DNA from: Lytechinus pictus | Taxonomy: Eukaryota | NCBI RefSeq assembly: GCF_037042905.1 | Contig: NC_087250.1 | Coordinates: 22,632,001-22,696,000, forward strand | Direction of reading: 5' to 3' | Length of the DNA: 64,000 nt | Part shown: in pieces, positions 27,398 through 63,712 of the stretch | How the letters are laid out: every line of letters starts with the position of its first letter | Numbering within the stretch: position 1 is the first letter of the stretch | Made by a program: the position numbers and the translations under genes | The notes under the pieces: generated by a model | Database searches by the model: none | Seen by the model: the letters and a program-made list of their open reading frames with translations, nothing else | Told to the model about the DNA's origin: nothing

Positions 27398-27735
27398 GTT
27401 CTTCCTTTTCCTTGTTTTCCTCTCCGTTTTCTTCTCCTTCTTCTTTCTTCTCCTTCTCCCTCTCCTTCTTCTTCTTCTTGTTCTTCTTTCTTATCCTTCT
27501 TCTTCTTCTTTTCTTCTTCTTCTTCTTCTTTTCTTCTTCTTCTTCTTTTTTTCTTCTTCTTCTTTCCTCTCCTTCTTCTTCCTCTCCTCCTTCCTTTTCT
27601 TCTTCTTTCCTCTCCTTCTCCTTCTCCTTCTTCTTCTTCTTTTCTTATTCTTCTTCTTTTCTTCTTCCTTTTGTCTTCTGCTCCTCTTCCTCTCCCTCTT
27701 CCACTCCACTCCATCCCATCTCCTTTTTTTTCTTC
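27398..27735. repeat. (CTT)n-rich polypyrimidine microsatellite
   Basis: Almost pure C/T tract; source of the low-complexity ORFs here. Confidence 0.95.
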
Positions 27736-27962
27736 CAATTTCTTATTTTCTGTAATATTTACTGTAAATTGCACTGTTTGATTGACAGATGCATACAATT
27801 CGGCTGGTCAATTCCTTTTCTATGAAAGCTTCAGCCCACGTGGCCAAGAACCGTTTTTCACTAGTCTTTGTCATATCAATCCTGATATTATCGTGTTAAT
27901 TGTAAAATAACTGACAATAACTCATTTATGTAATCACATATTATCTCTTCACCAAAATTTAG

Positions 27963-36241: not shown

Positions 36242-36800
36242 GTAAGTCTTAGGGGGAAATGCATGTTTAGGGGAAACAGAGATGAGTGGGAGGGGGAGCG
36301 GATACATTGATACGGATGAGCTCCACATCCTGTACGACCTCCTGGAAGGCAACGAGATGGAGTGTGAGAATTGCTTCCAAGATCAAGTCAATAGGCTCAA
36401 TGCTGCGAAGAGGAAAGAGAAATGAGTCTTAGGGAGAAATGTGTGTTTGGGGGGAACAGAGATGAGTGCGAGGGGGAGCCGAGCGGATACATTGATACGG
36501 ATGAGCTCCACATCCTGTATGACCTTCTCGAAGGCTACGAAGTGGAGTGTGAGAATTGCTTCCAGGATCACGTCAATAGGCTCAATGCTGCGAAGAGGAA
36601 ACAGAGGTAAGTCTTAGAGGGAAATGCGTGTTTGGGGGAAACAGAGATGAGTCCGAGCGAATACATTGATACGGATGACCTCCACATCATGTATGACCAC
36701 CTGGAAGGCAACGAGATGGAGTGTGAGAATTGCTTCCAAGATCAAGTCAATAGGCTCAATGCTGCGAAGAGGAAAGAGAAATGAGTCTTAGGGGGAAATG
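36110..36800 (+). repeat. Tandem array (4 units, 174-185 bp) of the exon 5 3' half plus donor region
   Basis: YIDTDEL..YDLLEG.E.ECENCFQD.VNRLNAAKRK coding sequence recurs, ending at 36241, 36421, 36606 and 36780. Confidence 0.95.
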
Positions 36801-37082
36801 CGCGTTAAGGGGAAAGAGTGGTATTTGCTAGGGTCAAATGTAAGTTTTTGGGAACATGGACTGAGTTTTAGGGGGAAATTGAGGTGAGTACAAGGGGTAC
36901 ATGTCTGTAAAGGGATAGACTATTTTTCATTCCGCTAAAAGATGACAAGAACATACTTGCCAAAACAATATTGTATGATCTTTTCCGGGATCAAACATAT
37001 GCCCTTGGAAGAAACATGGACATACCACAAAATCTCTACATTGATTCATTGAACATTTTCACCCAATTTCATCTCATTTCAG

Positions 37083-39175: not shown

Positions 39176-39328
39176 ATGGCAGAAGCTATCGGAGATGAGT
39201 CTAGAGCGATACATCATGTTGATAAAGCAACTTGCTTTTGTACATAATCCTACCACAGACAGCTGCTACTATGGAGAGAAGTGTATGGAAAAACTAACCC
39301 AGTGCTGTATAGAACGAACAGTACAAAA
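39176..39328 (+). CDS. ARHGAP35: p190 RhoGAP coding exon 7
   Basis: ttccag|WQKLSEMSLERYIMLIKQLAFVHNPTTDSCYYGEKCME...TVQK|gtgaga; phase 2-2. Confidence 0.92.
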
Positions 39329-39740
39329 GTGAGATTATTTCAACTTTCATTTGAAGCCTCCTTTAGTATAGCTTTAAATAGTAGTTTCATTATTTTAAGA
39401 AGTGTTTGGAAATACTGACTCAATGCTGTATAGAACGAACAGTACAAAAGTGAGATTATTTCAACTTTAATTTGAAGCCTCCTTTAATATAGCTTTAAAT
39501 AGTAGTCTCATTATTTTAAGAAGTGTTTGGAAATACTGACTCAATGCTGTATAGAACGAACAGTACAAAAGTGAGATTATTTCAACTTTTATTTGAAGCC
39601 TCCTTTAATATAGCTTTAAATAGTAGTCTCATTATTTTAAGAAGTGTTTGGAAATACTAACTCAATGTTGTATAGAACGAACAGTACAAAAGTGAGATTA
39701 TTTCAACTTTCATTTGAAGACTCCTTAATATAGCTTTAAA
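39276..39740 (+). repeat. 121-bp tandem repeat x4 containing the exon 7 3' end and donor
   Basis: gtacaaaa|gtgaga donors at 39329, 39450, 39571 and 39692. Confidence 0.95.
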
Positions 39741-40144
39741 TCTAAGTCTCAGGTTTAAAGGGGGAGTGAACTGCGTGTGGTCTCTTATTAACTGTGTGTT
39801 ATAAATACACAGTCTTAAAATATACGTTTTCAGATATCTCCTAATACTACAGAGACTGAATTGACCTATAACTTTATTTGTATAGAGAAACTAATATGAT
39901 TTTAGAGGAAAAGTAATTGTTTTGCTACTTGGTAACATAATTATAAATGTATGGAATAGATGATTAACATGTTATCATTCAAGCGGGTCTATATTACTAG
40001 ACTACACTAGCATTATGGGTCAGGAAACTGGCCAGGTATGAGTAGTTGAGGACTGGAGATGGCGCTATTGATTCGTATCTGCTTTAAGGTCATCTCAAAG
40101 GGACCAGAGATCTTCAACCATGTATATTTTTCTTTTCTTCGCAG

Positions 40145-41188: not shown

Positions 41189-42318
41189 AAAGTGTTTCTT
41201 GTTCTTCATAAATATTTATCTGTATTGCAATCTTTTCTGGCTTTTCTATACTGTATGAAATTCGGAATCTTACATGACTTTTGTAGAATTCGCAGGCTAA
41301 ACAGGGCAGCGGAAGAAGTTTGTCCCAGGTATGCGTATGATGCACACCCTCAAGAATTTGCTAACAGATTTCATTAATATTCACCAATATTCTATCATAT
41401 TTCATGGTATAAACTGACTGATTATGCTATCTACACCGTATTTGATGAATTTACTCATAATTCCACATTATTTATTTATTTTCCATAATAATATTCTTTA
41501 ACAATTTCATTTGAATAATAATTTGAATAATTTAAAAATTGACAATGTATGGGATATATAACTCATCATATTAAATAGTTGAAATATTTTTGGAATAAAT
41601 ATTAAATGGAAACTCAACTCGAGTAGCAGTGAATATTCATAACATGAAATGATAATATCAACATAGGAAATAAACAGTGTGTGTTTGTGATTTGTTGCAT
41701 ATATATCTTCTTATTTTCAAAAAATGAGTTTATTTTTTGTTTTTCTGAATCACCAAGATCAAAAAATTTAATTCAGATTTGCTGTGAGTCACACGCACTG
41801 CACACACCAATATTTGGCACAAGCATTTTAACCTATTTTATGTTTGTCCTATTTTATGTCAGGGAATTTAGGGAAATTAAGGAATCTTAGTAAAAGATAC
41901 AAGATATTTTATTTTGTCTTCGCAACATGATAATTACAAATCAATTTGTTTTCCCATGGTATATTGTAAGATTATAGACATACTTGAACAAAACAAATCA
42001 CACAAATAAGTTACTCAGGTATGAGTAAATCAAGCAGATATTATGATGTTACATCTATGAAAGTTTGAGTTGTCCAATATACTTATTATTATTAACATCA
42101 TTTTTATTTATCAAGCCTTGAATACCCTTATAGCAAAGGAGACTTCCCTGCAAAAGCAGGGATCCCGTCAAAAAGTGACCAGCTACTTGTCGACCAAGTA
42201 AAAATGAACCATACAATGACAATGATTTTATTTCTTTGACGGCCACTCTTGGGGGCATAGAAGAAATATAAGAAGCTATAACAATGGCAATGATAGGCAT
42301 AAGAAAAATACTAAGACT

Positions 42319-45246: not shown

Positions 45247-45861
45247 GTATGGTGTCTTTAAAATGCCTCAAGTAAAATTTGAAAATAAAGTTATCATATC
45301 ATGGGCTAAGAAAAATTGAAATTAATATATGGAAATAATAATGGAAAAATTCTACTGTTATAGTAGAACAATACTGTCACTGCCTGGTAATTTGTAAATA
45401 TGTCATCTCCTATGCTGGCCAGGGGTGGCATTTTAATGCTCTTTGTATCTCACCGAAAAGGTGCTACATAAATATGAACTATAATTATTATTGGAACAAC
45501 GTCGCTAAGCACGTTACAGATATATCATTACCCTGATCATCAGGTTTTGGCATGCGCGTAGGCAATTAATGCACTTTTTCCATTCCCTTGGGTGGATAAG
45601 ATGCGTCTGTGACGTCATAATGGAAAGCAGGTATGACCTCGTCGTCAGTGTGATCCTAGGAAATTTTGAAGAATTCAAGCAAAAAATTCTTTCCACTATA
45701 AATTCATTCTGCCTACCTGCTTTATGAAACAGTTACTGCATACATTTTAAAACTTGTGCTTGTTGCACAGTGTAAATACGTACCCTTGAATGTGCTGCAT
45801 TGCCACCACACACTCTTAAATGTGCATTATTTGTTTTATTTTTATTATTTACTTTCTGTAG

Positions 45862-46044
45862 ATTGAACAACTGTCAAATCGTCAATGTGCCTCCAGACAA
45901 CACCAACCTGTGGCAGGGGAAGAAATTCAGCGAATCTCAGATACAGGACGCCCTCAGGTCGGTGGTGGCCGGTCAGAAATACCGCAGCGGAACCCCCAAC
46001 CAGGCGGAGAGTGACCGAGGCGAGAACGGCGATAATGCTTTCAG
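45862..46044 (+). CDS. ARHGAP35: p190 RhoGAP coding exon 11 (end of pG1)
   Basis: LNNCQIVNVPPDN...KKFSESQIQDALRSVV...DNAF; phase 2-2. Confidence 0.9.
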
Positions 46045-46269
46045 GTTTGGACTTTTAGTTATACGCCAGTTTGCTTGTTGTTAAATGAGCTTAATATTTG
46101 GCCTAGTTTTTAACCTCCTACCACTTAATCTCTGATCTTTTATTCACATTCTATGTTCTTCACATTTTTCAGGTGTTCCACAAAAAGTTAATTTTGGCAT
46201 CAGATCTTGTGTAACTGCCAATGAAGTAGACATGGTTGAAGTCCATCTTACTTTTTGTGAAACACCTGA

Positions 46270-47931
46270 GGATCCTTCCTCCTCTCTTTGTGTTTTCTAC
46301 CTTTTTATCTGTGTCTCTCTGTCCCACTCTGTCTCACTTTTTCTCTTTGTCTCTCTCTTTTGCATTCTCTCTGTCTTTTCCCTGTGTTTCTCTGCCCTAT
46401 ATCTCAGTTTCCCTGTCTTTGTCCTTCTCTTTGTTTCTCAGTCTCCCCTGTCTCACTTTTTCCCCCTTTGTCTCTCTGTCTTGCTGTCTTTGGCATTATT
46501 TGTGGCAGTCGTTATTTTCTAATGTCAGGTTTTTCTGTGTACGAGTACATTAATATGTAGCTCATATAAAGTTGACATGAATATATTTTTCTGCAAAAGC
46601 CTGTTTCATGCCTTCATCCTTTTAATTTTTCCGCCCTTTTCATTTGTTCTCATTATAACTTTCTATCATTTACCCATGTCAATGTTGTATATTTTCCACA
46701 TTTACTTGGTATGGTTAACTATTACATGACCGTATATTATCTTAGTCTTAACCATTGCATCTCCCAACTCTTTGCAAAGATAATTTCATTCTGCAGCAAA
46801 TATTTATTTTATTGTATTCTATTTCTTTCTTGCCTGCTGATTCTTGTATGTTTGTACACGACTTGTAATTTCCATTTGACCACTTTTTGCCTTCTGCTCG
46901 TGTTTATTCAATGTTTTGATTTACCAATTCTTCCTGTTATTATCTCTTTCCCTATCTCCTGTGTCACTCTACTCTTCCACTTCCTCTTCTCTTTGCTTTA
47001 CCTCTTGTTATCACTCTTTGTTTATGATGCTCTTCACAATCTCTTTTCTCCCCCTCTTCCACTTCCTTCCTTTATTTCTTTCTTCCCCTCTATGTCTTTA
47101 TTCTCCTTTCTATCGTTTTGCTTTCCCTTCTCTCGCGTTTTTCACTGTGCCCCCCCCCCTTTTTCAATGACTTTCTTCACAATCTCTTCTCATTCTATTT
47201 TTCTCTCTATGACTCTATATCTCTTTATCATACTCTTACCTTCCTCTTGTATTCTCTCATTTTGTCTCTCTTTCCTTTATTTCTTTCTTCCCCTTCCTAT
47301 GTTATTCACTCTTTCCTTACTCCTTTTTGTTTTCCCTACTTATTCTTTGCTGTGCCCCTTTTTTCTATTTGAGTTCGTTCACAATCTCTTCTCATGCTAT
47401 CTCTCTCTCTCTCTCTCTGACTTTATTTTTCTTTGTCTTACTCTCCTATTCCTCTTGTTTTGCTCTCATTCTTTCTCTCTTAGTATCCCCCTCTCTAACT
47501 TGCTTGTCCTTTGTCATATCTCTTGTATTTTCTTCTTGTATTTTCTCTTCATTCTTCCCTCTCAAATTTGCTATCCTTCTCCAATCTCTTTGTCTCACTC
47601 TCCTTCTCTTCTGCTTGTATTCTCTCATTCTTTCTCTCTTAGTACCCCCTCTCTAACTTGCTTCCCCTTTGTCATATCTCTTCTTGTATTTTCTCTTCAT
47701 TCTCCCCTCTCTCAAATTTGCTATCCTTCTCCAATTTCTTTGTCTCACTCTCCATCTCTTCTCCTTGTGTTCTCTCAATCTTTCTCTCTCTGCCTTTCAT
47801 TGCACCTCACCCTCAATCCCTTCCCATATCATGATGTATATGCTTATCACTGCACCATCTGATCATTTGCATGCTTTTCTCATCTGCTACTTGCACACAC
47901 ACACACTCACCTATTTTCCTTCACCTATGGT
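46270..47931. repeat. Long pyrimidine-rich low-complexity tract with a ~159-bp internal duplication (47464-47790)
   Basis: C/T-dominated; the duplicated unit carries ctctctaac. Confidence 0.85.
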
Positions 47932-47933
47932 AG

Positions 47934-48029
47934 GATTGGCATGTGCATAGCGTGTGGTGATCCCTTCTCACCTGAATTAGTACTGCCTTTTCTCAGGACG
48001 CACAACTGCAGCCTCTCTGCTTTAGATAG
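47934..48029 (+). CDS. ARHGAP35: Candidate alternative (duplicated) exon 12a of p190 RhoGAP; may be a pseudoexon
   Basis: tag|G IGMCIACGDPFSPELVLPFLRTHNCSLSALD, paralogous to the exon 12b start with the same phase; 96 nt if the weak donor AG|gtacac is used. Confidence 0.5.
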
Positions 48030-48994
48030 GTACACCACTCTTACTCATTCATGCCACCTTTTCATTTTGCACACTACCTTATGGTATCCAACAGAATTGA
48101 GCACACTCCTTATTACTGTAACTCTTCACTCAATGATTTTATAGAATTCAAACAGTATGTGAAAATATTTAAAGATGATACACCTTTATGACAGGATACT
48201 TCATATTTTATGACTATGAAGCTTTTGTTTCAAATACAGGTGTATACAAAGCTTAACAACATATCCTTGAGGGATGTACTCACTTCTGTTGGATACTATA
48301 CTGCACATTAAACCTTGCTAAATACCTTATATTGCTATCTTGTATTACTATTCCTATACATTACTTCAATCACATTTATTTTTGGATTGTTTTCAAATAT
48401 ATGATGTTTGGCTTCTAATCATTTTTCCATATTCCATAAGACTAGTATTTTTTTGGTAAATTTCATTTACTTTGAGAACTCTATCATGTGTAGATAAAAT
48501 TCTTCATACATAATATTTTGCCATGTTTAAGTTTTTATCAAGTTGTATAAGATGTATTTTTTAGTAGAAAAATCAAAGATAGTGCAAATAAAAACACTTG
48601 ATTTTTTTCTGATTGTAATGCTGACCTATAAATGTAGCATTTCCTATGGGTTGGTGTCCTCTCTCTAGTGTTGTTATATATGTATAATGTAGAAAGTAGC
48701 AACGTATGTTATTGGCAAGATAAAGAGTGTATAAAATAGGGAAAAGACCTTGATAGAAAACAAATGTTTCTTGACAATTTCATTTTCCAAGGCAGAGGGA
48801 ATACTTAAATACATAAAAAAAACCTTTGTTGAAAAGTATGCGTAGAATTTTGATATGTTGGTATAAAGCAGGTCTGGTCTAAAACGACATTCCTGATTTG
48901 ACCTCATTTTGACCTCATTTGCATAACTCCTCCCCCAATCCACCACCACCACCACCAATATCACCAACACGTTCACCCTTCTCTACCCCATCAG

Positions 48995-49252
48995 GATCGG
49001 CCTATGCATGACTTGCGGTGACCCCTTCCAGCCGGACCTCGTCTTGTCGCCGATCACGAGCCACAACTTCATGGCCACGCCCAACGAGAAGAACTGCATC
49101 ACGAGCGACTTGTTCCTCATCGATACCAAGTGCCGGGTGGACTTTGAGATCTCTTCGTATCATCTCAGTGAGAGCCTACGGGACCAGCGGGTTCACCATG
49201 GCTACATCCTCGTCTATGCAGCTCAACGGAAGGCATCACTGGAGATGCTAAG
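48995..49252 (+). CDS. ARHGAP35: p190 RhoGAP coding exon 12b (pG2)
   Basis: IGLCMTCGDPFQPDLVL...HHGYILVYAAQRKASLEML|gtatgt; phase 2-2. Confidence 0.94.
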
Positions 49253-49829
49253 GTATGTTGAAATACAGTCAACTCTTAGGAGCGTTTCACAAAAGGACTT
49301 GTCGGACATTTCATTTGACAAGTCCATTTTATCCAGCAGTTTCCTTTGTAACCATGCTTCTCAGGCAATCAAAACCAAGGAAAGAAGTCAGATCTGACAT
49401 CTTGTTGGACAGACATTTTGATGAAGGGTTCCCTGATATGTGTTTCATAAAGCTATTCATGATATTACCAAGAACTTTTGGAAGGACTGGAACGTGTTCT
49501 TAGGTGATAATTCAGTTATATATGGATTATCGTGTCGCGTAAGAATGGGTCACAAGTCGTGCGTTTAGTCTTTCATAACTTACGAACAGCTTATGAAAAG
49601 GCCTCTATGTGTGTATAGAAGGTCTAACTTGCGTTTTCCCTCTTCCTGTATAATATTCTTACCTTCAAGCTACAAGAAGTTACAGGGTCACACAAGTATT
49701 AAGTACCCTGAGCTGCTTCCGGGAATTTTTGGTCATTGTCAGTTGTGAGAATTACTACTTCTTCTGTCATACAAATACCTGTACAAGAATGAATAACTAC
49801 AACATGATGATTTTCTTGTCTTATTTCAG

Positions 49830-49990: not shown

Positions 49991-50928
49991 GTATGTATTC
50001 ATTGTGGTGACCTGATGGGAATTTATTCCTTCAATTACAGTGTGTGTATCAGTGGTGATGCGATATTTGCTCTCGCGATAATTGCTCCGGGTTTAATTTC
50101 GTACCTCCCTCAATGGCTAAGCTTTATATTAAGGAGCCCTAGACTTTGTCTCTAGACTTTGTCTATAGACTTTGTCTACCATTTTCAGATGTGTTGCAGT
50201 TTAATTTCACTCTCACAAGTATAAGATAATTATTTCTCCAAATGTAAAAAGGCAATTGTTTTTACTTTAAATCTAAGGATGTATTTGGTGGATTGCTTGG
50301 AAGTGAAACAAAATAATTTTGTTAAGCAGAAAAATAATTTTGTTTAACAGTAATTCCTGAATATGGAGTGATTGATACATGTAGATCTAGGAAAAAACCT
50401 GCAGCTGAACCGACTCCATCTGCTGGTATGTCTTTTCACCGAAGCCAAAGAGTGACCAGAATTGAACTTAAACTGTATCATACCATTACAATGAGGACAA
50501 AGCTTGATGAGGCTCGTTTAACTGAAGATATATTTATATGATTCAGTACATTAGCGAGGTGACACAACATTTGCTTCAGCGACAATTGCTCTGGGCTTAC
50601 TTTCGTCTAATGTGTAGGATTAGGGTTTTAATGAGGTTTGAGGATAGGTTTAGGTTTAGGGTAGGGTGTAGTGTTAAACCCAGGGTTGAAGTTGGTCATT
50701 CGATTAGTGTGTGGAATTTACAGCAGAGCAATTATCGGCGGAGCTAATGTCTTGGAACCGTAACAGCTGCTAGGCAAAAGCCAGTGAGGGTAATTATGTT
50801 GCATCGCGATAATAATGATAATATTCCAACGTCATCCAGCTTTTCATTGTTGTTGATTTGAAAAGTTGAAGGAAGAGTCTCTCTCGTAGCGAATGTGAGG
50901 AGGATGTTTAAAATGTGCCTTAGGAGAG

Positions 50929-51222
50929 TGGAGCGTCGTGGCCCAGTGGATTAGTCTCCGGACTTTGAAACAGAAGGTCGTTGGTTCAAATCCCGGCCAT
51001 GGTGTAATTTCCTTCAGCAAGGAATTCATCCACAGTGTGCTGCACTCGACCCAGGTGAGGTAAATGGGTACCGGCAGGAAGTAATTCTCAAAAAGCTGTG
51101 TGCACCGAATAGGTAGCCTAGCTTAGCCGGGTAATAATAATAGCAGGGCCCGCTGGGAGAACAGTTTTCGGAACTGAAGTGGCTACCTTCGGTAAATATA
51201 CCGTTATTGTTATTATTATTAT
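50929..51222 (+). mobile_element. tRNA-derived SINE
   Basis: Close match to the 14901 copy; (TTA)n tail. Confidence 0.88.
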
Positions 51223-51279
51223 TAAGAGTTTATTTCAATATGACTCTTTCATATTCAACTCTTTGTGAATCACCCACCA

Positions 51280-51604
51280 GGGCCCTGTCTTACAAAGAGT
51301 TAAGATTGATCTGATCAACCTCAAGTATATGGAAATCCATCAACGTCATAATTTTTTCTTCAGGAAATTTGCACAATGTCTTTTTCTTCAGGAAATTTGC
51401 ACAATGTCTTTTTATTCAGGAAATTTGCACAATGTCCTTTGAAACAAAGAGAATCACACTGAATTATAAAAAAATAGTGAATGTATGAATATACGTCATA
51501 TCTAGAAATATTTTGAAGAAACATGTATTTTAGATGTTGACGTTGCTGGCTGTCCATAGTTGTGATTGATTCGATCAATCGTAAATCTTTGTAAGACGGG
51601 GCCC
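51280..51604. mobile_element. MITE family C with an internal triplication
   Basis: cag TSD; ttcaggaaatttgcacaatgtc x3. Confidence 0.85.
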
Positions 51605-51688
51605 AGGTGTACTTGTGAGCAATATAAAAAACACAATGTTATTTTTATTTCATTTTCTTTCTTTGTTGTTTAATTTTCTTTCTCTCAG

Positions 51689-51803
51689 CTGTGATCTACA
51701 ACAGTTTCTTGAAGGAAGCCCACAGGAAGAGGAAAGAAACAGAGAAGCTTTACAAGGCAGATGAGATCACTAACAGACCTCCAATGGAGTTACCCTCTCC
51801 AAG
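51689..51803 (+). CDS. ARHGAP35: p190 RhoGAP coding exon 14 (end of pG2)
   Basis: Long pyrimidine tract, cag|(T)VIYNSFLKEAHRKRKETEKLYKADEITNRPPMELPSP|gtaagt; phase 1-2. Confidence 0.88.
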
Positions 51804-51876
51804 GTAAGTCTTTTTATAAAATCAAAGTTGAAGTCAAATTATCAAACAAATATTATCATAATTACCACACACCACA

Positions 51877-52689
51877 GCTCCGTCTTACAAAGAGTTACAA
51901 TTGATCCAATCAATCTCAACTGTATGGAAATCCATCCTTACCAGAATTTTTTCTACAGGAAATTTGCAAAATCTCCATGGTAAACAAAGAGAATCACACT
52001 GAATCTTCAAGAGAATGAGGAATGTATGAAAATACAATCTATCTAGAAAATATTTTGAACAAATTTGCATTTTAGATGTTGATGATGCTGGCCATCCATA
52101 GTTGTGGTTGATCGGATCAATTATAACTCTTTGTAACACGGGTCCCTGGGGCCGTAACACAAAGCTTAGCAATGACCGTAGAACGGTTTTCTACGATTGA
52201 TTCCATTGACTACAATGTACAATCGTACAAATCAAGCGTACGATTAATCGCTAACCTTTGTGTTACGGGACCCTGGTGGGTGTTTCATAAAGCTGATCGT
52301 AATCAACGAACGACTGGTGACCCATTCTTGTGCTACATAATATATCCCTATGTAACTGACTTAGCACTAGAACATGTTCCAGTCGAGCTTTTTACGAAAA
52401 GCTTGATGAAACACCCACCAGGGCCCCATCTTACAAAGAGTTACGATCGATCCAATCAATCGTGACTATGGAAATCCATCAGTGTCATAATTTTTCTACA
52501 GGAAATTTGCAAACGTCCTTTGTAAAAAAAGGAGATCACACCAAATTGTCAAGAAATCAATGAATTTATGGATATACATTCATATCGAGATTTGTTTTTG
52601 ATCCAACATGCATTTTATATGTTGACTTTGCTGGCTTTCTATAGTTGCGATTGATCGGATCAATCGCAACTCTTTGTAAGACAGGCCCC
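51877..52689. mobile_element. Cluster of four abutting MITEs (C, gggccgtaacacaaag-type, D, C)
   Basis: Four TIR pairs joined by single CTG/CAG triplets. Confidence 0.82.
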
Positions 52690-53010
52690 AGGCAATGCTG
52701 TATGAAAAACTGATAGATGAGAAATCACATGAGCTTGTAAATAGACGTTAAAAGATGGGCGTTTCTGCAACCCTGTTTGGCGTTCAACGATGTATTGGAT
52801 AGAGCTACGTCGATATTGTGCTGCTCAGTGGCTGCCGTGCCCACGATCAAATGGGCAAAACTAATTTCTGAGTATTTCTATTTCTATTATATATTAGATA
52901 TCTATTTTGAACAATAAAATATGGATTTTCATTTTTTTCATTTTCATTAAGCCATCCATCCATAGATCAGCTGTAATTCATTTCAATATTTTTCTCTTCT
53001 TGTTTTTTAG

Positions 53011-55477: not shown

Positions 55478-57870
55478 TACGTATGCATGTTAAGTATGGT
55501 AATGGTAATCTGTATACCAGTATGTATGTGGGAATCGCTTTTCATGTTTAGCAGTGGGAAAAAGTAAAAAGGTATAAATTTTGGATATTTAGGAATGTAA
55601 ATAAATTATTTATGAATCTAGGAGTGAAATTACAAGAGTAGTTCAGTCTGTATTGGATGGGTAATAGAATTTAGCTTGCTTTTACCGCTTCATGGATGTA
55701 AATTTGCTCCCAGTTAAAAGTTGCCCAGTCTGGGCCCTCTTGTATGAAAGTTACTGGTAACTTCACCATACAATTGCAATTGCCATGGTAACAATGCTCA
55801 ACAGCCAATCAAAATCAAGGATTTTATGGAAATAACCAATGGATGGTAAGGTTACAATAGAGGTAACTTTCGGGCAATTCCATAAAATGATCAACCTTTT
55901 TTTTACGTCCTACGCCCATTTTTCTCAGGTTTTGCTTCACTTCATAAACTGACAAAGTCATGATCCATTGAAAACATAACAGACTGTCAAAAGAACAAGA
56001 AATCAGAGACAGAAATTTCATGACGTACATATTTTATGGAATTGCTCTTACATGTAATTGCAATAGGGCCATCTGAAGTACTTTGAATCCATAGTAGTGG
56101 TATTATGATGAAATAACCTATATACCACGCATACCCAATTAGATATTCTATTCAAGCTCTATGAGAGTAAAAAGAGCGTAGTATTTGATTACCTTTAATT
56201 GCCTTGAATGGCAATTAATTTTGAGATTTCAATCTTGAATTTTAAACAAAAGGGAAATTTATCAACAATTATATATGATGAAGGGAATTATGATTATGAT
56301 TCAGAGGAAACACAAAAATAAGTGATACTGGCCCAGAATCTGTTTATGATGTCTGAATCATTTTAATTAATATCATCCTCCATCTTGGCTTAATAATGAT
56401 GAAGTCTTGCCTTCGTTTCTTTCATACACCTATTGTTATAATGATTCAACCATCAGCATTAATTTATCTGATGTTGATTATTTCCTTTCAAAGCTGAGTG
56501 AAATTCATTTAGAAAAACAGTTAAAAGTTTGCTCATTTAGATTATGTCCTTTCAGAGCATAGTGAATTTCATTAAAAAAAACGAAATAAAAAAATGGAAT
56601 TGGTGAAAGTGCATTAACTTTCCTGACTCTTGTTCTAATTTATCCTTTCTTCATTTTCCACCCTTCCACCCCTCACATGTTGGCTTCCTATTCCTCTCCT
56701 CAACCCCCTATTCAATTAATGGTATCTCCCTATTAATGCAATGTGTGTTCCTTTTTTTGTATTGTAATGAATTGTGTTTTTTTTTGCTTTAACTTCCCGT
56801 ACATGCAAACGTGTTGTTCCTATGGTGTAAATATACTGTATTTTTTATCCTTGTAATTGTTGGCACATCAAGTGTTATTTTCCTTTCCTTTTTTCATTGT
56901 ACTTTCCTCTTTCTTTATTGCCTCCATAAACTGTCTTTGTCTTCAATTGACTGTTGATTTTATATCTGTTATTGTGTTATTTTTTGGTCTCACAATTTTT
57001 TTTGTCTTTTGTCTGCATCTTTGCCTTTATATGGCTTACTAATTTGGTGTCTGTATTTCTTTTGGGTTAAATCATATTAATATATTCATTTATTGCTACT
57101 TCAAATGTTCATCTCAACAATATTTGTGTGTCACCATAATTTCTTCTGGATATTGATTGATTTTTTATTTCATTTTCATTTCATTTGTTCAATGTTACAA
57201 ATAATGAAAATTACCAAATTCTTTTTCCATTATTTCTCATGAATTGGAACCTTGGTATTTCTTTTATGTTTGCCCACTGGATTTGATTTTCAAATTCTTT
57301 GGTTTCAAATTTGAATCAAACTTCAACATTTTGTGTTATTTACACATCTTGCACTTTCCCCCTTTTCTCATTTGGAAAAAAAATGATGAACAAATCCTCT
57401 ATTTTAATAATTATTTCATTTTATTATTATATGGTCCCACATGCTCTGTTTTATGTTGTCTATGTCTCATAACGCTTTTGCATCCCTACGATTTTATGTA
57501 TATTAATCATCATGGCTTGCGTAATATATTCAAATATTGCTATATTGTATAAATTCCTCTTGATGCATACAAATTTCCCATTATTGTATGAGTTGGTAAT
57601 AATCTCTTGCCTTGCATCTGATTCAAGTTGCCCCCCTCTATTTATTGATACCTTTCAATTCTATCCCTTTTCTACTCTGAATACATCTTGATAATTTGCA
57701 TAAAAATGGAATACCTTCACTTTGATTTGATGATATCCGAACGGTCTGCATGATGTGGTTGGTCTCAATATCTATATATGCATACGTGTTGCATGATGCA
57801 CCGTGCCCCGCCCTGCCCATCCCCACCCCCATTACCAATGATGCCACCCCACCCACCCCCCTTCCAATAG

Positions 57871-61650: not shown

Positions 61651-63321
61651 TCCATATTATGTTAACTGTTATCATTGGCTTTGCTTCAGAGGGAAAATGG
61701 CAATTGTTTTAAATATTGATATCACTTGCAAATTGGTGCTCATGTACATGTATAGCAGACATTGAATGAAAAGCTTCTCATTGCGATATTTCGTGGTTCG
61801 AATTGATACATAACACTTGCTATGGATATTACATAGCTTACAGTATTTACATCTGCCAATTGATAATTTTCTCATCCCTTTTCAAGTCATGATAAAAACC
61901 ACATGTACCATCTTAGTCCCAGGTAAACTCTTTTTTTTTTTGCCTGGAGTCCAGAGTGCGTGCCTGGTTGCGTTTAGCCTTTTGCTTGATCACGTTTTAA
62001 CAAGCGTTTGTTTAATGATTGCCGGACCATGCCGTCATTTTCATGCTAGTACATTCATTCTGCTTTAATAGTGTAGTTATGAATAAAAGAAAATTGAGGG
62101 TAACTTTGCTCAAAGTTTTATTTTGAATTAATCTTATAAACACATCATTCTCATGGCACTGCGCAGAGAGTTCATGCGATTTGATTAACCATGTGGGGTA
62201 GATCATTAATTCCATCATGACTTTGCATTAATTGCTACTTGTCTTCTCAAGTGTTTGTTTATTACTCTGGGTCTGGGAGGGGCCTTGTGAAGTGGTTTTT
62301 AGGGTTGATTTGCCCTGCATGCTACATTTTAAAGCAAAATTCTGTTCTGGGATTAGGTTTGCAGTGTTGATATGCCTGGAAAGAGGGAAATCAATAAGAT
62401 TTTAATCTTCTTTTCCCTTTCATTTTTAAAAGTTGTCTTGAAGATTCAATTTTTTTCTGAAATCAAAGAAGCTTCTTCATGATTAAGAGGATTTTATTCA
62501 CGTGCAGTTCGGCATAAGATTAAGTTTTTCTGCTCATAATTGGCATTTAAGCATTGTGAAACTTATTGATACAATATTGCACTGTGTATCATTGATGAGC
62601 AAATCAGGGTTTTAGAGGTTTGCTGTGTTTGAGATTTTTATTTTTATTTTTTGTTTGGTGTAAAAGAGGGAAAACCAACTTTTTTGATTCTGCAAAATGA
62701 TACGGGCAAAGTATGACAGTCACTGTTCTCTTTTCCATTAATGTAACAAAGTATGGAAATTTCTGTTTCTTTATGGTTTTATTGATGTGAGGATTTATTT
62801 TGTACTATCATTTCTTTTTTATTACCTTTTCTTTTCCCCACCTGCTTGCCGATCTGTGCTTCAATATTGCATTATCCTACCCTATAAAATTACCTTGTGT
62901 ACATGTTTGTCCCCCCATGGCTTTTTCCTCTCCCTATAAAATCCCATTAAACCATTACCATAAACCACATCTCCTATGACTTTTCTTCCCTCCCTATACA
63001 ATTTCATTATACCATTACCTTGTATGTATGTCCCCCATATGACTTTTCCCCCTCTCCTTATACGATCCCATCATGCACCTCATTTAATATCTCTTCCTTT
63101 TGCACTGAATAACTTAAAACCCCATCCCTTATATAATCATGTTATCGTACTTCCTTACATCACTTATTTCTCTTATGTAATTCCTGTCCTTGTCTTTGCC
63201 CCATGCATTTTGTCCCATGCATTTCTTAATAACCCTACTGATCGTATTACTCCTCCTGATACAAACCCATTACACTCCCATTATTTCCTCATCATTCTGA
63301 TGAATTAAAATATACTCTCTC

Positions 63322-63560
63322 TTTTACCACTCCTTATACCACTCCTACCACTTTTTATACCACCCCTTATACCACTCCTTATACCAATGCTTGTACCACT
63401 CCTTGCACCAATCCTTCACCACTCCTTATACCAATCCTTATAATGTACTCCCCTTTTACCATATCTTATACCTATCCTCATACCATCCTTTATCCTTACA
63501 CCAATCCTTTTACTAATCCATATACTACCTCTTATACTAATCCTTATACCATCCCTCATA
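63322..63560. repeat. 12-bp minisatellite (ccactccttata)
   Basis: Degenerate tandem copies. Confidence 0.85.
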
Positions 63561-63712
63561 TTTCTGTTATATCACATGGTGTCTTGTACTACATTATTTC
63601 ACTTCCAAAACCCATTTTTATACATAATTTTCCATCATACTTTCAATTTCCCATGACCAATACCAAACCCTTATGCAAACCCAATGTCTTATACCCCTTC
63701 CCCGGTAAGCAG

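What the first reader, a model, noticed from the sequence alone, without database searches (positions are those of the whole stretch)
46797..47933. Polypyrimidine/AG-poor kilobase with a distant branch-point consensus ahead of exon 12a
Seen: only three AGs (47372, 47482, 47641) in 1135 nt, and none in the last 289 nt. CTCTAAC at ~47651 (duplicated at ~47493) is followed by a long CU-rich tract, with TGCATG at 47868. Established: a distant branch point with a long CU tract (PTB sites) is the layout of classic mutually exclusive exons. This independently supports 47934 as a real or formerly real acceptor.
Basis: partly seen in the sequence, partly recalled or inferred. Interest (0 to 1): 0.7.

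Follow-up and report, generated by a model that had tools for sequence, protein, structure and literature searches.

The report
AG-free zone before silent duplicate exon
In a sea urchin p190RhoGAP gene, a pyrimidine-rich, AG-poor kilobase of intron ends exactly at a conserved partial copy of the next exon and likely guards a rarely used splice acceptor, a known layout, but no RNA examined was spliced there and it is not the classic mutually exclusive arrangement.

Summary
Observation confirmed: 3 AGs in 1135 nt, none in the last 289, CTCTAAC twice, one TGCATG. The gene is a Lytechinus-type p190RhoGAP. Only three kilobases of the window are this AG-poor, all on the sense strand, and each ends at an acceptor: 47934 and two exons that RefSeq isoforms skip. 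47934 scores as a strong acceptor and opens 12a, a copy of the first 32 codons of exon 12b that fits the Pfam profile as well as 12b and is almost unchanged in a close relative. No junction at 47934 appeared in 7 runs, 0 of 48 related proteins contain 12a, and contigs of four studies cross 47934 unspliced. Verdict: a likely real, rarely used acceptor behind a known kind of AG-exclusion zone; branch point unproven. The scan noted such zones before in this gene and genome.

The parts
45862..46044 (+). Exon 11 of the p190RhoGAP gene; donor CAG|GTTTGG
   Evidence: tblastn of RefSeq proteins; spliced contig joins it to 12b
46797..47931 (+). Pyrimidine-rich, AG-poor tract (3 AG in 1135 nt)
46953..47558 (+). 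606-nt part of the tract missing from contigs of organism A in 3 of 4 runs; ends TA..CC, so read as a genomic indel, not a splice; it holds the AGs 47372 and 47482 and the first CTCTAAC
   Evidence: joint 46952-47559
47409..47800 (+). About 2.6 copies of a ~150-158-nt CT-rich unit; each full copy carries TAG followed by CTCTAAC; copy number differs in run X4
   Evidence: joint going back 140 nt
47641..47642 (+). Last upstream AG; itself a strong acceptor mimic (10.9; its twin at 47482 scores 11.1). Use would add a 387-nt exon with an in-frame stop
47651..47657 (+). CTCTAAC, candidate distant branch point (A at 47656, 278 nt before the acceptor, 14 nt after the last AG); use not shown
   Evidence: heuristic in PMC1431707
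47643..47931 (+). Strict AG-exclusion zone, 289 nt; second longest of 19 acceptors examined
47868..47873 (+). TGCATG (Rbfox-type motif, name recalled); at chance level, 27 copies on + in the window
47906..47910 (+). CTCAC, proximal branch-point candidate at -25; changed in organism A, where the listed differences give CTTAT at -21 instead
47934..48029 (+). Candidate exon 12a, 96 nt, phase 2-2, paralog of the first 32 codons of 12b (start of the pG2 pseudoGTPase domain); strong acceptor, very weak donor TAG|GTACAC
48030..48144 (+). Open frame continuing past the weak donor to a stop at 48142-48144; faint in-frame similarity to exon 12b up to about codon 47
48080..48300 (.). TA-flanked element with 31-nt inverted ends (MITE-like; family resemblance to Tc1/mariner recalled, not tested) that interrupts the 12a frame at codon 49; no remainder of exon 12 found behind it
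   Evidence: right arm drew contigs from other loci
48995..49252 (+). Exon 12b, 258 nt, the form in the database proteins and in the spliced RNA
56610..57868 (+). Comparator: AG-poor zone before exon 16 (in 27 of 42 proteins spanning the region)
62792..63707 (+). Comparator: 916-nt AG-free zone before exon 18 (in 35 of 42 proteins spanning the region)

Best explanation
The tract is an AG-poor, pyrimidine-rich intron segment that ends exactly at a strong acceptor-like site opening a conserved 96-nt duplicate (12a) of the start of p190RhoGAP exon 12, and it likely acts as an AG-exclusion zone for a rarely used acceptor that would be reached by scanning from a branch point predicted at 47656. Shown: the zone, its end point, the duplicate, its conservation, and skipping (11 joined to 12b) as the only splice seen. 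Inferred: selection keeps the last 289 nt free of AG; the kilobase length is largely an expansion of a variable CT-rich repeat; the very weak donor and the long pyrimidine tract keep 12a silent in most cells; in some unsampled tissue or stage it would be included in frame, adding 32 residues at the start of the pG2 domain. It is not held mutually exclusive with 12b by steric or frame mechanisms.
For: Only 3 AG-poor kilobases in 64 kb, all sense, each ending at an acceptor; 2-3 AG in the kilobase before 12a, exon 16 and exon 18 against 25-92 for the other 16 acceptors; exons 16 and 18 are skipped in some RefSeq proteins. Acceptor score 12.6, or 12.8 without 12b in training; leave-one-out range of real sites 1.4-14.5. 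12a differs from 12b at 26 of 72 nt (8/4/14 by codon position) yet scores 22.1 bits on PF19518 against 17.0 for the matching part of 12b. In organism A at most 1 difference in 47912-48042 in run X13 and in 47912-48027 in run X1, against 45 of 517 in nearby intron (P about 9e-5) and 35 of 1043 in coding exons. CTCTAAC sits at the 5' end of the strict zone, as in the verified case of AGEZ 287 and branch point -275 (PMC1431707 passage).
Against: No joint at 47934 or 48029 in 4 contig runs and 3 raw-read runs; contigs of four studies cross 47934 unspliced, and three also cross 48029. 0 of 48 related proteins carry 12a (45 carry 12b). Donor score 2.3, below all 19 real donors (6.6-12.1). AG depletion here is only modest (P=0.008) and partly due to repeats; motifs are at chance level. 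A proximal branch candidate exists. No obvious reason why a 32-residue insert would keep the family consensus. The conservation figure comes by subtraction of listed differences, runs X4 and X5 have 3 and 6 unlocated differences, and the runs were found with this very stretch.
Confidence: 0.45

Rival explanations
1. 12a is an alternative last exon or a splicing decoy: the acceptor is engaged but there is no working donor, so RNA ends shortly after it (intronic polyadenylation, protein cut before most of pG2 and the GAP domain) or stalls unspliced, possibly as a polyadenylated lariat intermediate.
For: Donor far below all real ones; contigs of four studies cover 46490-46952 and 47559-48042 unspliced, joined neither to exon 11 nor to 12b, and stop at or about 20 letters beyond 48042; the frame runs on to a stop at 48142.
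Against: No AATAAA or ATTAAA before 48307 in the window; contigs give no strand or end; the 21-23 loose letters were not displayed; no lariat-type joint seen; protein-level constraint on a cut-off domain start is hard to explain. A library artefact at T-rich introns is possible (internal priming is described in bioRxiv 10.1101/2022.08.01.502392, passages; the antisense mechanism itself is recalled).
Confidence: 0.2
2. Relic: 12a was once a full-length mutually exclusive partner of 12b, lost its 3' two-thirds (element insertion at codon 49, deletion), and the tract is a left-over zone since expanded by a simple repeat.
For: Family-level constraint on 12a makes most sense inside a whole pG2 domain; in-frame similarity runs past the weak donor (best shuffle P=0.006 against the Diadema exon, 1 of 9 comparisons); element at 48080-48300 and no remainder behind it; no use in RNA or proteins.
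Against: 12a and its flanks are far less changed in organism A than neighbouring intron, which decay does not predict; the acceptor is still strong and the last 289 nt still AG-free.
Confidence: 0.2
3. The tract is only a low-complexity CT minisatellite, perhaps part of an intronic or antisense transcript, and its AG-poverty has no splicing role.
For: ~150-nt unit with variable copy number and a 606-nt indel; G is preceded by T in 69 of 79 cases, and GG and CG are as depleted as AG; motifs at chance level.
Against: A comparable CT-rich stretch at 27399-27960 is not AG-depleted (5 vs 4.2) and GA is not depleted in the tract; the zone ends exactly at the duplicate's AG, followed by 7 AGs in 100 nt; the tract is shared with organism A.
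Confidence: 0.1
4. One reading: a distant branch point enforcing classic mutually exclusive splicing of 12a and 12b under PTB/Rbfox control.
For: 12a and 12b are homologous, adjacent and in the same phase; long CU tract present.
Against: Candidate branch point is in the wrong intron and 1612 nt from the nearest donor; the intervening intron has 39 AGs and a 121-nt zone; lengths 96 vs 258, both multiples of 3; no pairing of 12a with nearby intron beyond background; 12a never seen used.
Confidence: 0.05

Closest known systems
Distant-branch-point exons with AG-exclusion zones (PTB exon 11, GABBR1 exon 23; Gooding et al. 2006, PMC1431707, passages read)
   Same: Strict zone of 289 nt with a YNYURAY heptamer at its 5' end and a pyrimidine tract behind it, nearly the geometry of GABBR1 exon 23 (287 nt, -275).
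   Different: Invertebrate; branch use and exon inclusion not shown; the motif lies in a variable repeat unit that also makes strong acceptor mimics; a proximal candidate exists. That paper estimates only one-half to one-fifth of zones of 100 nt or more mark a distant branch point.
Sterically enforced mutually exclusive exons (OGDH 4a/4b, PMC7969005 passages read; alpha-tropomyosin 2/3 and alpha-actinin, layout recalled)
   Same: Tandem homologous exons in the same phase and a long pyrimidine tract.
   Different: Tract and candidate branch point precede the first exon, not the second; 1612 nt from a donor instead of under 50; unequal lengths; only one exon seen in RNA.
Decoy exons that promote intron retention (PMC6097662, PMC7373989; search listing and start of abstract only)
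   Same: Conserved cryptic exon inside a long intron, seen in unspliced RNA.
   Different: 12a is a coding-exon duplicate, and cover spans only part of the intron rather than a whole retained intron.
p190RhoGAP pG2 pseudoGTPase domain (PF19518; PMC5593906 passages read)
   Same: 12a and 12b both match profile positions from 228-229 on.
   Different: No splice variant of this domain start turned up in the paper listings.

Membership tests
Distant-branch-point / AG-exclusion-zone exons | AG-free zone of 150 nt or more before the acceptor | tested here: met
   289 nt
Distant-branch-point / AG-exclusion-zone exons | Branch consensus near the 5' end of the zone with an adjacent pyrimidine tract | tested here: met
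   CTCTAAC, A at 47656, 14 nt after the last AG; 5% chance within the zone
Distant-branch-point / AG-exclusion-zone exons | The acceptor is used in spliced RNA | tested here: inconclusive
   No joint in 7 runs, 0 of 48 proteins; only 10 raw reads lay on 12b at 49028
Distant-branch-point / AG-exclusion-zone exons | The distal adenosine is the branch actually used | not testable with these tools
   Needs lariat reads or RT-PCR; a proximal CTCAC at -25 is an alternative
Distant-branch-point / AG-exclusion-zone exons | Zone kept in orthologous genes | tested here: inconclusive
   Present in organism A, and none of the 14 listed differences in 47748-47911 makes an AG; no distant urchin genome on hand
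Sterically enforced mutually exclusive exons | Branch point in the intervening intron, under about 50 nt from the first exon's donor | tested here: not met
   Candidate lies before 12a, 1612 nt from the exon 11 donor; 39 AGs in the 965-nt intervening intron
Mutually exclusive exons from tandem duplication | Sequence similarity and same reading frame | tested here: met
   14 of 24 residues identical, E=2e-10 pairwise; both phase 2-2
Mutually exclusive exons from tandem duplication | Similar length | tested here: not met
   96 vs 258 nt; read-through frame stops at 48142; no remainder behind the element
Mutually exclusive exons from tandem duplication | Each exon seen in transcripts, never both | tested here: inconclusive
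   Only 11-12b seen
PTB/Rbfox-regulated exons | Binding or knockdown effect | not testable with these tools
   TGCATG at chance level; TCTT/CTCT 107 vs 89 expected over 1135 nt, 18 vs 17 in the last 289 nt
Decoy exons | Retention of the whole host intron depending on the cryptic exon | tested here: inconclusive
   Unspliced cover only over part of the intron; contigs cannot show absence

The most novel reading that the evidence does not exclude
An orphaned half-copy of a coding exon has been re-used as a regulatory trap: a distant branch point commits splicing to its strong acceptor, no donor follows, and a stand-alone unspliced or lariat-type polyadenylated RNA builds up, diverting p190RhoGAP transcripts from making the GAP-bearing protein.
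Probability: 0.1. Interest if true: 0.62.

Novelty: new member of a known kind. Interest (0 to 1): 0.3.

Why it matters
If the acceptor is live, it adds an unannotated, conserved exon at the start of the pG2 domain of sea urchin p190RhoGAP, a region whose removal lowers GAP activity in the mammalian protein (PMC5593906 passage). It also adds one more case that this genome marks optional exons with very long AG-poor zones, which makes invertebrate distant branch points easy to test by lariat RT-PCR. On its own this zone is the weakest of the three in the gene and of ordinary vertebrate length (289 nt strict), so it is a modest finding.

Tried and rejected
No whole genome is held. Protein searches with the 69-residue 12a frame found nothing among longer or similar-length proteins; the scan of 1.84 billion representatives gave one repetitive, unrelated-looking hit. 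These blanks are weak, and three numbered RefSeq isoforms (L. variegatus X12, S. purpuratus X8 and X9) were not among the 48 proteins retrieved. The run search listed no holder on record as RNA: no evidence either way; spliced contigs later showed mRNA in X1 and X4. The first lay was swamped by repeats at 50868-52925. Stretches without cover (46046-46490, 48043-48991) prove nothing by themselves. The metagenome scan gave 11 loci with short matches, none matching full-length p190. PDB search with 12b found no relative. Rejected: similarity between the introns before 12a and 12b (shuffle P=0.62); RNA pairing of 12a with nearby intron (best -40.8 against a background median of -39.5); a remainder of exon 12 behind the element (0 of 9 comparisons significant); a matching four-residue stretch near 48097-48108, which lies inside the element's inverted end; an in-phase internal acceptor in 12b (the only suitable AG, 49104-49105, is changed in X1). 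One acceptor was mis-numbered (47998) and rescored as 47997. The top listings of paper searches showed nothing on this exon or on long AG-free zones in sea urchins; only 10-20 titles per search were seen. No supplements were read.

Full report
Observation. The tract is 80% pyrimidine, so few AGs are expected anyway: 3 seen against 10.3 (P=0.008), while GA is at expectation (11 vs 10.3). GG and CG are as depleted as AG. CTAAC (2 vs 0.88) and TGCATG (present in 23% of 1000 shuffles) are at chance level, and the two CTCTAAC copies belong to a ~150-158-nt unit repeated about 2.6 times. What is beyond chance is the placement. Only three stretches of the window have 4 or fewer AG per kilobase, all on the + strand (lowest on - strand: 26), and they end at 47934, 57871 and 63710.

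The gene. The window holds a sea urchin p190RhoGAP (ARHGAP35/5-like) gene on the + strand. Exon 12b (48995-49252) is 100% identical to Lytechinus pictus RefSeq proteins, 99% to L. variegatus, 87% to Strongylocentrotus purpuratus and 67% to Diadema, and tblastn places the exons. Of 19 acceptors examined, 12a, exon 16 and exon 18 have 2-3 AGs in the kilobase upstream; the other 16 have 25-92. Exons 16 and 18 are optional in the database proteins (27 and 35 of 42 that span the region, one of which is a fragment). So in this gene an AG-poor kilobase goes with optional exons, though the optional 42-nt exon at 41287 has none. Earlier notes of this scan describe the exon 16 and 18 zones and several others in this genome; I re-measured the two in this window and not the others.

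The candidate exon. 47934-48029 is 96 nt, phase 2-2, and encodes a paralog of the first 32 codons of 12b (14 of 24 residues identical), the start of the pG2 pseudoGTPase domain. The copy is old: 26 of 72 nt differ, 8/4/14 by codon position. Yet it fits Pfam PF19518 at least as well as the same part of 12b (22.1 vs 17.0 bits; 19.7 vs 16.3 for 25 residues), which implies long purifying selection (inference). Its acceptor scores 12.6 on a matrix from the gene's 18 other acceptors, in the top 0.5% of 2206 AGs. Its donor scores 2.3, below all 19 real donors (6.6-12.1). Read through, the frame continues to a stop at 48142, with faint in-frame similarity to 12b up to about codon 47 (best P=0.006 in 1 of 9 comparisons), and is interrupted at codon 49 by a TA-flanked element with inverted ends (48080-48300). 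No remainder of exon 12 was found behind it.

RNA and relatives. None of 48 related proteins contains 12a; 45 contain 12b. Fifteen of 24 listed runs held 0.12-0.18 of the words of 47870-48260. Seven runs were laid; six are labelled organism A, a close relative (35 of 1043 coding letters differ in X1), and X13 has no organism on record but shares listed differences with them. In three raw-read runs 12a had no depth, but only 10 reads lay on 12b at 49028, so inclusion up to about a quarter is not excluded (hand calculation). In four contig runs from four studies the only splice joint inside 45800-49262 was exon 11 to 12b (X1, depth 19.2); there was none at 47934 or 48029. Instead contigs cross 47934 unspliced: 47840-48027 (X1), 47784-48042 (X4), 47748-48042 (X5), 47894-48042 (X13); three also cross 48029, and two carry 21-23 further letters that were not displayed. 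Cover also lies on 46490-46952. A 606-nt part of the tract (46953-47558) is missing in 3 of 4 runs with non-splice ends, and X4 shows an extra repeat copy, so the tract is shared with the relative but variable in length. 12a and its flanks show at most 1 difference over 47912-48042 in X13 and over 47912-48027 in X1, against 45 of 517 in nearby intron (P about 9e-5) and 3.4% in coding exons (P=0.06). Caveats: the count is by subtraction, X4 and X5 have 3 and 6 unlocated differences, and the runs were found with this stretch. Contigs give no strand, end or level and drop rare forms, so the unspliced island may be a sense RNA ending just past 12a, an antisense RNA, or a priming artefact at a T-rich intron; it stays unexplained.

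How it most likely works. Shown: the zone, its end at a strong acceptor, the conserved duplicate, and skipping as the only splice seen. From established splicing knowledge (PMC1431707, passages): the first AG more than about 12-15 nt after the branch point is taken as acceptor, so a branch far upstream needs an AG-free path. The A at 47656 lies 14 nt after the last AG and 278 nt before 47934, the only distal position that fits. Inferred: selection keeps those 289 nt clear; the further 846 nt are not needed for this and are largely repeat expansion, with two strong acceptor mimics (47484, 47643; scores 11.1 and 10.9) whose use at 47643 would bring an in-frame stop; the weak donor keeps 12a silent in the sampled material; where included it would add 32 residues in frame. 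A proximal candidate (CTCAC, -25) means the distal branch is not required. I put this reading at 0.45, a last-exon or decoy role at 0.2, a relic of a former full-length partner at 0.2, a mere repeat at 0.1 and classic mutual exclusion at 0.05.

Comparison with known systems. It works like a distant-branch-point exon and meets the two sequence criteria, with nearly the geometry of GABBR1 exon 23; use of the acceptor and of the branch is untested, and the same paper estimates that only one-half to one-fifth of long zones mark such a branch. It is not a member of the sterically enforced mutually exclusive class: there the branch lies in the intervening intron within about 50 nt of the first exon's donor (PMC7969005 and PMC5740500, passages), whereas here it precedes the first exon, 1612 nt from a donor, and the 965-nt intervening intron holds 39 AGs. 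The exons differ in length (96 vs 258 nt), both are multiples of three, and no RNA pairing above background was found. Avoidance of AG in pyrimidine tracts is already reported for short sea urchin introns (PMC10946897, passages). The top listings of searches showed no paper on this exon or on long zones in urchins.

Verdict. Observation confirmed; interpretation partly supported. A likely real but rarely used acceptor behind a known kind of AG-exclusion zone, the weakest of three in this gene; branch point and inclusion unproven; not the classic mutually exclusive layout. New member of a known kind; interest 0.3. The boldest open reading, a duplicate exon turned into a splicing trap that yields a stand-alone unspliced RNA, has probability about 0.1.

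Noticed in passing
window 46490-48042: Unspliced contigs from four studies cover this part of the intron, joined neither to exon 11 nor to 12b, and stop at or just beyond 48042; strand and nature unknown.
   Followed up: partly
window 47997-48029: An internal acceptor-like site (score 8.4) inside 12a would give a 33-nt in-frame microexon in the same frame.
   Followed up: partly
window 63702-63712 and 47927-47935: Two of the three acceptors behind AG-poor kilobases overlap a donor-like motif (CCG|GTAAGC at exon 18, ATG|GTAGGA at 12a); exon 18 also has a NAGNAG, with both forms in RefSeq proteins.
   Followed up: no
window 36242-36815: Three extra tandem copies of the 3' part of exon 5 (about 180-nt unit, 80-90% protein identity), some with the donor kept and some without.
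   Followed up: no
window 39277-39741: A 121-nt unit repeated 3.9 times that copies the 3' end of exon 7 with its donor.
   Followed up: no
window 46169-46269: Inverted repeat with 20-nt arms whose left end coincides with an acceptor-like site at 46173 (score 11.2).
   Followed up: no
window 41287-41328: A 42-nt optional exon (in 9 of 16 L. pictus proteins) without a long AG-free zone.
   Followed up: partly
window 56608-56645: A cluster of branch-like motifs (TTAAC, CTGAC, CTAAT) right after the AG that opens the exon 16 zone, about 1250 nt before its acceptor.
   Followed up: no
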